A stretch of 64,000 bases of DNA, taken from contig CAWCIZ010000002.1 of assembly GCA_963795855.1 (NCBI GenBank), forward strand, positions 32,001-96,000, read 5' to 3'. The DNA is from Vulcanimicrobiota bacterium. Lineage in GTDB: Bacteria; Vulcanimicrobiota; Vulcanimicrobiia; Vulcanimicrobiales; Vulcanimicrobiaceae. Below the pieces are notes generated by a model that worked only from the letters and a program-made list of their open reading frames with translations, was not told where the DNA came from and made no database searches. How positions within the stretch are numbered: position 1 is the first letter of the stretch; each line of letters begins with the position of its first letter. Positions 14,914 to 20,395 of the stretch are shown here, one piece after another. The translations under genes were made by a program, and so were the position numbers.

Positions 14914-15753
14914 ATGTCTGTCCTCAGTTCCGTCGCGCCCTCGATTCCGAAGAGCCCGCGCTTTCCACGCAATATCGCCGAGCGAATCGTCAATCGGTAT
15001 CGGATGCAAGCCGCAGCCGCGCGGCTTCGCAGACTTCCGCCCGACGAACGGGGAGAACGCTACGTCGACTATGGCTGGCTCAAACTGCTTTTCAGCGACG
15101 ACGGCGATAAGCAAGAGCTGTACTATCACGCGCATTCGAGCGAATATTACGCAAATGATTTTCCGATCTATTCGAAACTCTTGAAACCCGGCGACGTCGC
15201 AGTCGACGTTGGAGCGAATCTTGGGTGGACGGCAGTGCTCATGGCGTCATTCGTCGGGAGTGCCGGACACGTTTTCGCTTTCGAACCGGCGAAATCGATC
15301 TTCGCCAAATTGCTGAAGACGATCGCTGCGAACGGACTCGAGGCGGTGATCACGCCGCTCAACCTCGCTTGCGGAGGCGAGGCGGGCTGCTGCATGCTGA
15401 ACCGCGTTTCGACGTCGTCGGGCAACAGTTCGATCGTGAACGCCGCCCCCGGCGCGCAAACGGAATCGATTGACGTCGTACGCCTTGACGACGTTGCCGA
15501 ATTAAAGGAGCAAAGGATCACGCTCATCAAAATCGACACGGAAGGATACGAACCCATGGTGCTCGCGGGGTCGGCAGCGCTCATCGCAAGGGAGAAGCCG
15601 TTGATATACTTGGAGATGGGCGGCGACTATTTGCAATCGACGTTGGAATCGCGGCGCATCCTCGAAGCATTCGGCTATCGGCTCAACTCGCCCAAAGATG
15701 TGGACTGGAGCAGAGTCGGAAACGGTTCGAACTTCTTGGCCGTTCCGGTTTGA
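14914..15753 (+). CDS. FkbM family methyltransferase
   Basis: VDVGANLG, VFAFEP, IKIDTEGYE. Confidence 0.92.
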   Translation: MSVLSSVAPSIPKSPRFPRNIAERIVNRYRMQAAAARLRRLPPDERGERYVDYGWLKLLFSDDGDKQELYYHAHSSEYYANDFPIYSKLLKPGDVAVDVGANLGWTAVLMASFVGSAGHVFAFEPAKSIFAKLLKTIAANGLEAVITPLNLACGGEAGCCMLNRVSTSSGNSSIVNAAPGAQTESIDVVRLDDVAELKEQRITLIKIDTEGYEPMVLAGSAALIAREKPLIYLEMGGDYLQSTLESRRILEAFGYRLNSPKDVDWSRVGNGSNFLAVPV

Positions 15754-15770
15754 AAAATCGGACGGGCGGA

Positions 15771-16121
15771 CTACGCCGTTACCACGTTTTGAACGCAGCG
15801 ATTCAAGCATCGCATCGCGCATGAAGTGCACCATTTGTGCCTGATTGAAGCACTCCGTATAACAGTCAGCTCGGCAGGGAAGCGGCTCACAGTCATCCCC
15901 CACCACGATTGGAGCTTACTCACCGTCTCAATTGGCGTATACCGTGAAAAAGCCGTCCTCGTCGTATCTCACGAGGGCGGCTTTGCGGCGTTGCGGTTGT
16001 AGCGTTTTTTCGACTCGTGCGCTTCGGCTTGGGCGCAGATTTTGCGCGGGGCCTTTCAACGGCATGAGGCAGGCCTTTTTCGTCGTTTTCGTTTCATCGC
16101 AGGAACCTCCGCGTATAGTAT
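15771..16121 (-). pseudogene. Decayed duplicate of the two small genes at 18275-18728
   Basis: High similarity to 18275-18728 with two internal deletions (~80 and ~22 nt) and frameshifts. Confidence 0.85.
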
Positions 16122-16268
16122 GGCGTCATTCGTCGGGAGCGCAGGACACGTTTTTGCTTTCGAATCGGCGAAATCGATGCCTCGCCAAATTGCTAAAGAC
16201 GATCGCATGCGAACGGGCTCGACGCGGTGATCGCGCCGGTCAAACCTCGGTTGCGGAGGCGGGCCGGC
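16120..16268 (+). pseudogene. Decayed duplicate of an internal FkbM segment (~15241-15390)
   Basis: ATGGCGTCATTCGTCGGGAG...TTGCGGAGGC repeated with substitutions and indels. Confidence 0.85.
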
Positions 16269-16367
16269 CTAACGGATGGGTCAAGTCCAAACAAAATTTT
16301 ATTTCACTCGACTCACCGTCTGTGCTGGCCTCGTGAACGGTGCGACGTCGCAATTAGCCGCATTCCG

Positions 16368-18274: not shown

Positions 18275-18496
18275 CTATGCCGTTACCACGTTTTGAACGA
18301 CGACGTGCACGGATGCAACCCCGCGCGGCTCGATTTGAATTCGTTCCCCGTCGAAGACGATGATCGGCTGGCTCTTACGCAGCGATTCAAGCATCGCATC
18401 GCGCATGAAGTGCGCGATCTGCGCTTGATTGAAGCACTCCGTAAACGTCCGGCCGTCGTGCAGCGTAACAGTCAGATCGGCAGGGAAGCGGCTCAC
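18275..18496 (-). CDS. Small hypothetical protein
   Basis: GGAGG before GTG (VSRFPADL...); also present as a decayed duplicate. Confidence 0.55.
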   Translation of the reverse strand: MSRFPADLTVTLHDGRTFTECFNQAQIAHFMRDAMLESLRKSQPIIVFDGERIQIEPRGVASVHVVVQNVVTA

Positions 18497-18705
18497 AATC
18501 TCATCCTCCAATACGATTGGAGTGTACCGCCCCGCTCAATGGCGTATACCGTGAAAAAGCCGCCCTCGTCGTATCTCGCGAGGGCGGCTTTGCGGCGTTT
18601 GCGGTTATAGCGCTTTTTCGATTCGTGCGCTCCGGCCGGGCGCAGATTTTGCGCCGGACCCATCCTCGGCACGAGGGCGGGCTTTTTTCGTCGTTTTCGT
18701 TTCAC
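18493..18705 (-). CDS. Small basic protein, candidate alternative ribosome-rescue factor (ArfA/BrfA-like architecture)
   Basis: GGAGG + GTG; MKRKRRKK...HESKKRYNRKRRKAALARYDEGGFF; intrinsic terminator inside the ORF. Confidence 0.6.
   Translation of the reverse strand: MKRKRRKKPALVPRMGPAQNLRPAGAHESKKRYNRKRRKAALARYDEGGFFTVYAIERGGTLQSYWRMRL
18554..18591 (-). terminator. Intragenic intrinsic terminator
   Basis: Minus strand AAAGCCGCCCTCG-CGAGATACGA-CGAGGGCGGCTTTTT. Confidence 0.8.
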
Positions 18706-18730
18706 GCGGAAACCTCCGCGTCTAGTATAC

Positions 18731-20395
18731 ATGCCGGGCCAAGCTGTCCCGATCAGCGAACCGGTCGGCGTGAACCAGCTCGATGGCGCGCTTCGCGAAC
18801 TCGACGCGTCGAAAGACGCGTGGGCGCGCCTGCGAATACCGGAAAAGATCGCGCTGCTCGAGGATTTGAAACGCGCCGTTCACCGGGAGGCTACCCAGTG
18901 GGTCGAACTGGCTTCCCGAGCCAAGGGCTTGGCCCCCGGTTCACCGCTCGAGGGTGAGGAATGGATTTCCGGACCCTGGGCGGTGCTGTATGCCATCAAT
19001 CGCTACCTGCGTACGCTGACGGGCATCCGAACCTTCGGACATTCGCCGGTTCCGAAAGCGCAAGCGCGGCGCGACGGGCGAATCACGGTGAGCGTCTTTC
19101 CGCGCACGCCGTACGACCGTCTGCTGCTGAGCGGGATCTCCGCCGAAGTTTGGATGCAGCCCGGCATAGATGCAGACGATGTCACGCGCGACGCCGCATC
19201 TTTTTACGCGCAAACCCAGCCGCATGGGCGTGTCGCGCTCGTTCTGGGGGCCGGCAACATTGCAAGCATCGCGCCGCTGGACGTGCTCTACAAATTGCTC
19301 GCGGACGGCTGCGTGTGCATGCTCAAAATGAATCCGGTCAATGCCTATCTCGGGCCAATCTTCGAGCGCGCATTCGCCTCGTTCGTCCAAGCCGGATACG
19401 TACGCTTCGCGTACGGCGGTGCCGACGTCGGCCGACATCTTTGCTCGCACGAACTCGTGCGGCAGATTCACGTCACCGGCAGCGCGGCGACCTACAATGC
19501 GATCCTCGCCGGCACGGACCGGCATAAGCGCATTACCAGCGAGCTCGGTAACGTCAGCCCGACGATCGTTCTTCCCGGTCCGTGGAGCGACGACGATCTC
19601 GCGTTTCAGGCAGAGAACATCGCGACGCAAAAAGCGCATAACGCCGGATTCAATTGCATTGCCGCGCAAGTGCTCGTTCTGCCGAAGGCCTGGAAACATT
19701 CGCACGCTCTGCGCGATCGGATTACCGCGATTCTGGATAGCATGGAACAGCGCCCGGAGTATTATCCGGGCGCCGAGCAGCGCCGCGCTGCGCTCGGCGG
19801 TGCGGGCACGCGGCTGCGGAGCATCGCGCACGTCGATCCCGCGCAGACGGACCACGCCGCATTCAAAAGCGAAGCATTCTGTGGCCTCCTGGCTTGCATC
19901 GAACTTCCCGGACAATTCGAAGAGTACGTACGCAGCGCCGTCGCGTTCGCCAACGACCGGCTCTATGGAACGCTCGGCGTAAACCTGATCGCGCACCCGG
20001 AAACGATGAAACGCTGGAGCAGCGCGTGTGACGATGCCATCGCTTCACTGCGCTACGGATGCGTCGGCGTGAACTGCTGGACCGCCGTCGGCTATTTCAT
20101 CACGGAGACGCCCTGGGGCGCATACCCGCGTCACACCGCCGGCGACCCGGGCAGCGGGGTCGGCGTCGTGCACAACTCCTATTTTCTCGCGGCCACGGAA
20201 AAGAGCGTGATCCGCGCGCCGTTTTTTCCGTTTCCGCGCGGGCTGCGCCACAGATCGTTTTCCGTGCTGCCGCGGCCGCCGTGGTTCGTCACGAACCGCA
20301 TGCAGGCGCAAATCGGTCGAGCGCTCTGCGATTTCGAACTCAGTCCCTCACCGGCACTGGCCATCGCGATCGCGCGCTTGGCGATGCGCGGTTAG
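18731..20395 (+). CDS. Aldehyde dehydrogenase family protein
   Basis: LVLGAGN, LKMNPVN, HVTGS, SELGNVSP, NAGFNC, EAFCG. Confidence 0.85.
   Translation: MPGQAVPISEPVGVNQLDGALRELDASKDAWARLRIPEKIALLEDLKRAVHREATQWVELASRAKGLAPGSPLEGEEWISGPWAVLYAINRYLRTLTGIRTFGHSPVPKAQARRDGRITVSVFPRTPYDRLLLSGISAEVWMQPGIDADDVTRDAASFYAQTQPHGRVALVLGAGNIASIAPLDVLYKLLADGCVCMLKMNPVNAYLGPIFERAFASFVQAGYVRFAYGGADVGRHLCSHELVRQIHVTGSAATYNAILAGTDRHKRITSELGNVSPTIVLPGPWSDDDLAFQAENIATQKAHNAGFNCIAAQVLVLPKAWKHSHALRDRITAILDSMEQRPEYYPGAEQRRAALGGAGTRLRSIAHVDPAQTDHAAFKSEAFCGLLACIELPGQFEEYVRSAVAFANDRLYGTLGVNLIAHPETMKRWSSACDDAIASLRYGCVGVNCWTAVGYFITETPWGAYPRHTAGDPGSGVGVVHNSYFLAATEKSVIRAPFFPFPRGLRHRSFSVLPRPPWFVTNRMQAQIGRALCDFELSPSPALAIAIARLAMRG

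What the first reader, a model, noticed from the sequence alone, without database searches (positions are those of the whole stretch)
18493..18705. Candidate alternative ribosome-rescue factor encoded on a self-truncating (non-stop) mRNA
Seen: a 70-codon, very basic ORF with a GGAGG RBS and the motif HESKKRYNRKRRK. A strong intrinsic terminator (18554-18591, 13-bp stem plus U-tract) lies inside the ORF, about 60 nt before the stop; the codons KAAL...EGGFF are the hairpin itself. Known: E. coli ArfA and B. subtilis BrfA are made from truncated non-stop mRNAs (BrfA through an internal rho-independent terminator). tmRNA tags and destroys them unless trans-translation fails, and they use a basic C-terminal motif to enter the mRNA channel. 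Inference: a lineage-specific backup rescue factor controlled by tmRNA, possibly an undescribed family.
Basis: partly seen in the sequence, partly recalled or inferred. Interest (0 to 1): 0.78.

Follow-up and report, generated by a model that had tools for sequence, protein, structure and literature searches.

The report
Stop-less candidate ribosome-rescue gene family
A small, very basic protein gene of soil Vulcanimicrobiota bacteria carries a conserved RNA hairpin inside its reading frame that probably cuts its message off before the stop codon, as in the back-up ribosome-rescue genes arfA and brfA, so it is a good but untested candidate for a new rescue factor.

Summary
Observation confirmed, on the minus strand: 70-codon GTG ORF 18705-18493 with TATACT box and GGAGG; perfect 13-bp hairpin (18591-18556) 60 nt before the stop; modest U-tract (5 of 8). 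It is a real uncatalogued family of Vulcanimicrobiaceae (strong hits in 65 of 251 phylum genomes; no Pfam, NCBIfam or PDB match; no homology to ArfA). Of 102 members, 64 carry the homologous hairpin: 11 of 13 pairs show compensatory changes, and its 3' arm is read in different frames. The stop lies at least 9 nt past the stem in 63 of 64 (29 of 29 in a hold-out set). Tail identity is 9%, core identity 84%. tmRNA and SmpB are present; ArfA and ArfB were not found. Best reading: a tmRNA-gated, release-factor-dependent back-up rescue factor of about 51 aa (0.55). Against: no rescue activity, RNA end or RF binding shown; 38 of 102 lack the hairpin; the opposite-strand U-tract is about as common; no KH/KGKGS motif. 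The scan noted this layout before in other families, never on this DNA.

The parts
18493..18705 (-). 70-codon ORF (GTG start), small basic protein. Conserved part is residues 1-51; residues 52-70 are an unconserved tail lying over the next gene's promoter and RBS
18613..18675 (-). Family core LxPRxGPxxNLRPAGAHxxKK (residues 11-31), under protein-level selection: synonymous sites vary freely
18556..18591 (-). In-frame 13-bp hairpin (5' arm 18591-18579, 3' arm 18568-18556); putative intrinsic terminator or RNase III site
18550..18558 (-). U-tract UUUUUCACG after the last G-C pair (18559). Inferred mRNA 3' end about 18552-18550, giving a 51-52 aa non-stop product ending ...DEGGFF
   Evidence: sequence; the 3' end is inferred
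18724..18729 (-). TATACT -10-like box; the commonest hexamer upstream of family members (16 of 101)
18713..18717 (-). GGAGG Shine-Dalgarno, inside a 7-bp hairpin (18721-18704) that also covers the start of the GTG; this hairpin is not conserved
18275..18496 (-). Downstream co-directional gene of about 73 aa (VSRFPADL...), no Pfam or NCBIfam match, with its own TACACT box (18526-18521) and GGAGG (18509-18505) inside the tail of the ORF
15888..16097 (-). Decayed second copy of the gene and of the start of the downstream gene: 3 indels and 17 substitutions in 165 nt; hairpin kept at 15984-15949
18731..20395 (+). Divergent aldehyde dehydrogenase family gene (neighbour, not part of the element)

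Best explanation
A lineage-specific back-up ribosome-rescue factor that works like ArfA/BrfA but is not detectably related to them in sequence. The gene is transcribed from its own promoter. In most members the transcript ends at, or is cut in, a hairpin encoded by the codons KAAL...E(D/G/S)GF, so the ribosome runs off a stop-less message. tmRNA-SmpB tags the product of about 51 aa for destruction, so it accumulates only when trans-translation is overloaded. It then binds non-stop 70S ribosomes through its basic segments and, having no GGQ, recruits RF2 or RF1 to release the chain. Shown: real conserved protein; RNA-level selection on the hairpin; hairpin before the stop; tail unconserved; tmRNA/SmpB present; ArfA/ArfB not found. 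Inferred: termination or cleavage, tagging, ribosome binding, RF recruitment, rescue.
For: Family: 50 of 50 candidates at E<=0.01, 113 representatives. Core codons vary synonymously while hairpin codons do not (Ala after Lys is GCC in 54 of 58; genome usage 28%). Structure: 90.7% of cells paired, 11 of 13 pairs compensatory, 0 of 500 shuffles as high, slid controls 35-58% (kin are not independent). The 3' arm is read in frame 0 in 51, frame 2 in 12 and frame 1 in 1 of 64, so it is kept as RNA, not as peptide. Stop >=9 nt past the stem in 63 of 64 and 29 of 29 hold-out. Identity 84% in the core, 9% after the hairpin; predicted product 47-58 aa, median net charge +12 before the stem, the size range of ArfA (about 55), BrfA (62) and ArfT (40). 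Hairpin kept, with its best sense U-tract (median 5.5), in 12 loci whose downstream gene is co-directional. tmRNA and SmpB in G000 and 54 of 54 relatives. ArfA in 0 of 61; no extra ArfB-like RF-1-domain hit in 61. No GGQ in 102. The three known RF-dependent factors are mutually unrelated, narrowly distributed, and more are predicted (PMC6881298 passages).
Against: Function rests on layout and composition alone. 38 of 102 members and 23 of 52 hold-out members lack the hairpin and end at fixed stops with acidic tails, in genomes that keep tmRNA/SmpB; at least 4 gains or losses are forced on a poorly resolved tree. The sense U-tract has >=5 U in only 37 of 64 and <=3 in 16 of 64; the opposite strand has >=5 in 34 of 64. 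No KGKGS (0 of 102), KH in 5 of 102, no profile match to ArfA. The in-frame stop is nearer than in the other frames (median 33 against 58 nt), so some read-through product may matter. Terminators more than 100 nt into a translated frame are partly repressed by coupled ribosomes in E. coli (PMC4824070 passages). G000 also has an RqcH/NFACT homologue, so it does not lack all back-up rescue.
Confidence: 0.55

Rival explanations
1. The hairpin is an ordinary, often bidirectional terminator, selected mainly for a convergent neighbour (sdh operon end, VOC-family gene) or as an mRNA 3' stabiliser, that has become embedded in the tail of a small basic ribosome- or RNA-binding protein of another function (accessory ribosomal protein, hibernation or stationary-phase factor). 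The normal product is made with a stop codon.
For: At least 21 of 64 hairpin loci have a convergent sdhE or VOC gene. Opposite-strand U>=5 in 34 of 64. 38 of 102 members do without the hairpin. Classical terminators are rare in G000 (15 of 1634 genes at or after the stop by the strict test). Viral copies have ordinary stops.
Against: The hairpin is kept in 12 loci with a co-directional neighbour, including all 7 genus loci, with the U-tract on the gene's own strand. It starts at the same codon position in genomes with unrelated neighbours. 7 hairpin-less members face a convergent ALDH gene without it. Stops behind the hairpin range from 6 to 930 nt and tails are 9% identical. The opposite-strand T-run is partly forced by Lys codons (inference).
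Confidence: 0.2
2. The non-stop switch is real, but the gated protein is not a release-factor adaptor. It is another effector that appears when trans-translation fails, for example a translation or initiation inhibitor, a ribosome-protecting factor, or a partner of RqcH-type quality control.
For: All evidence for the switch is silent on the protein's activity. No ArfA/BrfA motif. The invariant core GPxxNLRPAG is Pro/Gly-rich, and the model shows no beta-strand of the kind ArfA and BrfA add to RF2 (low confidence). RqcH homologue present. Trans-translation also regulates genes that are not rescue factors (zntR; PMC10107115 passages).
Against: In the papers read, the small basic proteins built to be made from non-stop mRNA are the rescue factors ArfA and BrfA. 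The feedback logic fits rescue best. The basic run ends about 12 residues before the predicted cut, as ArfA's ends about 10 before its own.
Confidence: 0.2
3. Leader-peptide attenuator: the ORF and hairpin control read-through into the downstream 73-aa gene, with the upstream near-copy of the 5' arm (18686-18671) as anti-terminator.
For: In the window the downstream gene is co-directional and its GTG overlaps the ORF's TGA. The segment 18686-18671 is 88% complementary to the 3' arm (I5).
Against: The downstream gene has its own -10 box and RBS. It follows only 12 of 64 hairpin loci. The anti-terminator and the stop/start overlap are not seen in the genus relatives. The peptide core is conserved far beyond what a leader peptide needs.
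Confidence: 0.04

Closest known systems
BrfA (YqkK) of Bacillus subtilis
   Same: Small basic protein; intrinsic terminator inside the ORF, a few codons before the stop; narrow range within one family; no GGQ; coexists with tmRNA-SmpB (PMC6881298).
   Different: No sequence match (PDB chain search 0 hits at E<=10); no KH motif; N-terminal half predicted without helices; product about 51 aa against 62; a third of members lack the hairpin; activity untested.
ArfA (YhdL, Pfam PF03889) of E. coli and relatives
   Same: Stem-loop in the 3' coding region, poorly conserved C-terminal tail, product of about 55 aa, basic run about 10 residues before the cut, a Y-x-R-K word (70 of 102 members; ArfA SYxRK). 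[quoted passage not shown]
   Different: No Pfam match; profile-profile probability 0.06-0.24%, within shuffled controls; no KGKGS; short GC-rich stem rather than a long interrupted one.
ArfT of Francisella
   Same: Very small basic factor unrelated to ArfA and of narrow range; apparently not regulated by a non-stop mRNA, a precedent for the hairpin-less members (10.1101/465609 passages).
   Different: No motif shared; a different phylum; sequence not compared directly.
DUF7230 (Pfam PF23876)
   Same: Small basic proteins of unknown function. Weak ESM Atlas neighbour (0.90, family on 18% of that cluster, recognition below threshold); 1 of 60 distant members matches at E=0.0067.
   Different: The query and 35 close members do not match; a profile against one DUF7230 sequence scored no better than shuffles. 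A lead only.

Membership tests
ArfA (PF03889) | Sequence homology to the ArfA profile | tested here: not met
   no match. hhalign against 25 ArfA sequences: probability 0.06-0.24%, with 21 of 60 and 53 of 60 shuffles as high
ArfA (PF03889) | KGKGS / KH mRNA-channel motifs | tested here: not met
   KGKG in 0 of 102, KH in 5 of 102
BrfA (YqkK) | Sequence homology to BrfA | tested here: inconclusive
   Only indirect: the family profile found 0 PDB chains at E<=10, and the review names PDB 6SZS as holding BrfA. No BrfA alignment was obtained
RF-dependent alternative rescue factors (ArfA/BrfA/ArfT kind) | Small (40-62 aa mature), strongly basic, no GGQ | tested here: met
   Predicted product 47-58 aa, median net +12 before the stem; GGQ in 0 of 102
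RF-dependent alternative rescue factors (ArfA/BrfA kind) | Conserved hairpin inside the ORF before the stop, with an unconserved tail | tested here: met
   met for 64 of 102 and 29 of 52 members, including the window gene; not met for the rest
RF-dependent alternative rescue factors (ArfA/BrfA kind) | mRNA really ends or is cut before the stop; product SsrA-tagged | not testable with these tools
   Needs 3'-end sequencing and tagging assays; tmRNA (tag ANTEYALAA) and SmpB are present
RF-dependent alternative rescue factors | Binds non-stop 70S and recruits RF1/RF2; synthetic lethal with ssrA | not testable with these tools
ArfB (YaeJ) | RF-1 domain with GGQ | tested here: not met
   No PF00472 match, no GGQ
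DUF7230 (PF23876) | Match to the Pfam profile | tested here: not met
   0 of 35 close members; 1 of 60 distant members, E=0.0067

The most novel reading that the evidence does not exclude
A further, independently evolved release-factor-dependent rescue factor with a new ribosome-binding core (GPxxNLRPAGAH), the first for Vulcanimicrobiota. Its tmRNA-gating hairpin has been gained or lost repeatedly within one family, giving paired regulated and constitutive alleles. Stop-codon-bearing copies on viruses could let phages switch hosts from tag-and-destroy to release-and-keep rescue.
Probability: 0.4. Interest if true: 0.8.

Novelty: new variant of a known kind. Interest (0 to 1): 0.62.

Why it matters
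The known RF-dependent rescue factors (ArfA, ArfT, BrfA) were found by genetics and are unrelated in sequence; the BrfA authors state that sequence similarity cannot find the others and that better strategies are needed. A covarying, frame-independent hairpin before the stop of a small basic gene is such a strategy. Here it yields a ready-to-test 51-aa candidate in a little-studied soil phylum in which neither ArfA nor ArfB was found. The natural hairpin-less alleles allow a direct test of what non-stop gating is for.

Tried and rejected
Library searches: Pfam, NCBIfam, PHROGs, PDB sequence and Rfam gave nothing convincing. Homology to ArfA was tested and rejected; the first run, held one mis-stranded row and was redone. 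DUF7230 link: only one family sequence was obtained, inconclusive. AlphaFold model: low confidence (pLDDT 69, pTM 0.28, one helix 30-48), so no fold search was run. Complex prediction with RF2 (alignments A6 and A2) was not available; nothing was folded. RNA runs: none was listed. The idea that hairpin loss goes with tmRNA loss was rejected (54 of 54 have tmRNA and SmpB). The SD-covering hairpin and the upstream anti-terminator-like repeat are not conserved. Range outside Vulcanimicrobiota was not established. L128, L133, L169, L181, L183 and L184 carry other phylum labels, but their best flanking genes match G000 genes at 73-87%. L194 and L195 are chance motif matches. L150, L162 and L166 are unresolved. 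ARAGORN missed the tmRNA; Rfam found it. The strict terminator test passes 0 of 25 true arfA loci (one mis-stranded), so it suits GC-rich stems only and is not a general positive control. GenBank phages: no match; a second viral scan found nothing. Rows dropped before counts: loci without the core motif (weak hits among L023-L030 and L101-L109; L087) and duplicates. L013, L073 and L084 passed the energy threshold with non-homologous stems and were moved to 'no hairpin'; L018, just under the threshold, was moved in by eye; five anchors were corrected by hand. In the hold-out set, 1 of the 29 (L322) is a non-homologous stem left in.

Full report
Observation. The ORF is on the minus strand, 18705 to 18493: GTG start, 70 residues, 21 K+R against 4 D+E. 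Upstream lie TATACT (18729-18724) and GGAGG (18717-18713). The hairpin has arms 18591-18579 and 18568-18556, 13 bp and fully complementary, and is followed by UUUUUCACG; 60 nt separate stem and stop. Termination 7-9 nt after the last G-C pair would leave 51-52 codons and no stop (inferred). The 19 tail codons lie over the -10 box and RBS of the next gene, a co-directional orphan of about 73 aa. A decayed duplicate of both genes lies at 16097-15888, with three indels in the ORF and the hairpin retained.

The protein family. 50 of 50 candidates matched at E<=0.01, two named Ca. Baltobacteraceae, which NCBI files under Vulcanimicrobiaceae. A profile found 113 representatives among 1.84 billion, and a wider one 500 proteins among 2850 candidates. 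In 251 genomes of the phylum, 65 have a match under 1e-10 (counted from the table), all in the window's family: 64 of 160 others plus G000. Of 90 genomes outside the family, 2 have weak matches only. Invariant core: GPxxN(L)RPAG. Synonymous sites in the core vary freely, so it is a protein under selection. No Pfam, NCBIfam, PHROGs or PDB match of weight. Four viral loci, two with the same protein, encode stop-bearing relatives. Cellular range outside Vulcanimicrobiota was not established.

The hairpin. From the loci non-redundant members were analysed. 66 passed a fixed threshold; after removing three non-homologous stems and adding one just under threshold, 64 carry the homologous hairpin. 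On their alignment 90.7% of cells pair, 11 of 13 pairs have compensatory changes, and none of 500 shuffles reaches this; slid controls give 35-58% (relatedness inflates the shuffle test). The stem is far more stable than synonymous recodings: 59 of 64 were beaten by at most 1 of 30. Its 3' arm is translated in frame 0 in 51 members, frame 2 in 12 and frame 1 in 1, so selection acts on the RNA. The in-frame stop ends at least 9 nt beyond the last G-C pair in 63 of 64 (range 6-930 nt, median 33). Identity is 84% in the core and 9% behind the stem. Hold-out: of 80 metagenome loci, 52 were new; 29 passed the same threshold (27 anchored on the same codon, one non-homologous), and all 29 have the stop at least 9 nt downstream. 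A strict in-frame terminator test is met by 30 of 64 members, 0 of 38 hairpin-less members and 1 of 1634 long G000 genes. It also misses true arfA loci (0 of 25), so it measures GC-rich stems only. Two of the 64 rows (L011, L069) come from genomes flagged unpublished; no claim depends on them.

Results against. 38 of 102 and 23 of 52 members have no hairpin. They end at clade-fixed stops with acidic tails (median -3 in the last ten residues), and a weakly resolved tree on the core needs at least 4 gains or losses (11 on the best tree). These genomes keep tmRNA and SmpB. The sense U-tract has >=5 U in 37 of 64 and <=3 in 16; the opposite strand has >=5 in 34 of 64, and at least 21 loci face a convergent sdhE or VOC gene. 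In many genomes the hairpin may therefore also serve the neighbour. But in the 12 loci with the co-directional 73-aa gene, including the window's whole genus set, it is kept with its best sense tract (median 5.5 against 4). Where U-tracts are weak, RNase III cleavage is an alternative; the enzyme and Rho are present in G000. The in-frame stop is nearer than in the other frames (33 against 58 nt). In E. coli, terminators deep in translated frames are partly repressed (PMC4824070, passages).

Host context. G000 has tmRNA (tag ANTEYALAA) and SmpB, RF1 and RF2 only, and an RqcH/NFACT homologue. Among 61 relatives, ArfA was found in 0. PF00472 gave two hits in 54, fewer in 5 and three in 2, with no extra ArfB-like hit (that ArfB carries this domain is recalled). 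The genomes are incomplete, so this means 'not found', not 'absent'.

Mechanism. Most likely (0.55): a back-up rescue factor gated by trans-translation. Shown: the protein, the RNA-selected hairpin, its place before the stop, the junk tail and the genomic context. Inferred: truncation of the message (about 0.75 on its own), SsrA tagging, binding to non-stop 70S through the basic runs at residues 2-8 and 28-39, and recruitment of a release factor. The AlphaFold model (pLDDT 69, pTM 0.28) shows only a helix at 30-48 and adds little. Rivals: an embedded ordinary or bidirectional terminator in a small ribosome-binding protein of another job (0.2); a tmRNA-gated effector that is not an RF adaptor (0.2); a leader-peptide attenuator (0.04).

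Comparison with the known. It works like BrfA and ArfA in layout (PMC6881298: passages and section 12; PMC8012679: abstract, outline and section 7; PMC3989581: passages). It is not a member of ArfA: no profile match against 25 sequences, and no KGKGS or KH. BrfA membership was tested only through the PDB search; the paper's supplementary alignment was not read. ArfT (10.1101/465609, passages; supplements closed) is a precedent for a factor without non-stop gating. PMC10107115 (passages) shows trans-translation control of a gene that is not a rescue factor. DUF7230 is a weak lead. Searches for a description of this family in print found none: 'Eremiobacterota + ribosome rescue', 'DUF7230 / PF23876 / Baltobacteraceae small protein / ArfA-like', 'Vulcanimicrobiota + small proteins', and the listings; the library lacks most subscription papers. 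Earlier scan notes hold nothing like this sequence but record the same layout in other families; these are unchecked and not counted as support.

Verdict. A real, uncatalogued small-protein family with strong comparative evidence for an in-frame RNA switch in about 60% of members and indirect evidence for rescue activity. New variant of a known kind; interest 0.62.

Noticed in passing
window 15757-16270: Decayed duplication: a frameshifted copy of this gene and its downstream gene (82% identity over 355 nt), next to a partial repeat of the FkbM methyltransferase gene (15241-15388 against 16120-16270).
   Followed up: partly
window 18275-18496 (-): Orphan gene of about 73 aa (VSRFPADL...) conserved in Vulcanimicrobiaceae, with its own -10 box and RBS, following this gene in about 19 of 102 loci, both with and without the hairpin; no Pfam or NCBIfam match.
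   Followed up: partly
window 18704-18721 (-): A 7-bp hairpin covers the Shine-Dalgarno and the start of the GTG; the strongest of 101 members (-11.2 kcal/mol) and not conserved. It could slow initiation and so favour termination.
   Followed up: yes
window 18655-18692: Near-copy of the hairpin's 5' arm within the ORF (88% complementary to the 3' arm). On the + strand this stretch forms a small hairpin followed by a T-run. Not seen in genus relatives.
   Followed up: partly
window 18724-18733: Only 25 nt separate the start codons of this gene and the divergent aldehyde dehydrogenase, so their promoters must overlap or the ALDH starts later.
   Followed up: no
G000 whole genome: Classical GC-rich, U-tract terminators look rare (15 of 1634 long genes at or after the stop by a strict test); Rho is present. 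ARAGORN misses this genome's tmRNA, which Rfam finds (L031).
   Followed up: partly
L095-L098, L100; L068-L076 group: Hairpin-less subfamilies have their own conserved C-terminal words (L.A.G.WA(F/Y)DED; (E/D)(V/I)DLNVD); in the second a small stem sits just before or across the stop.
   Followed up: no
L112-L115: Viral contigs encode stop-bearing relatives; in L112 a strong hairpin spans the stop codon.
   Followed up: partly
L040:850-900: RF2 gene with the CTT-TGA +1 frameshift site.
   Followed up: no
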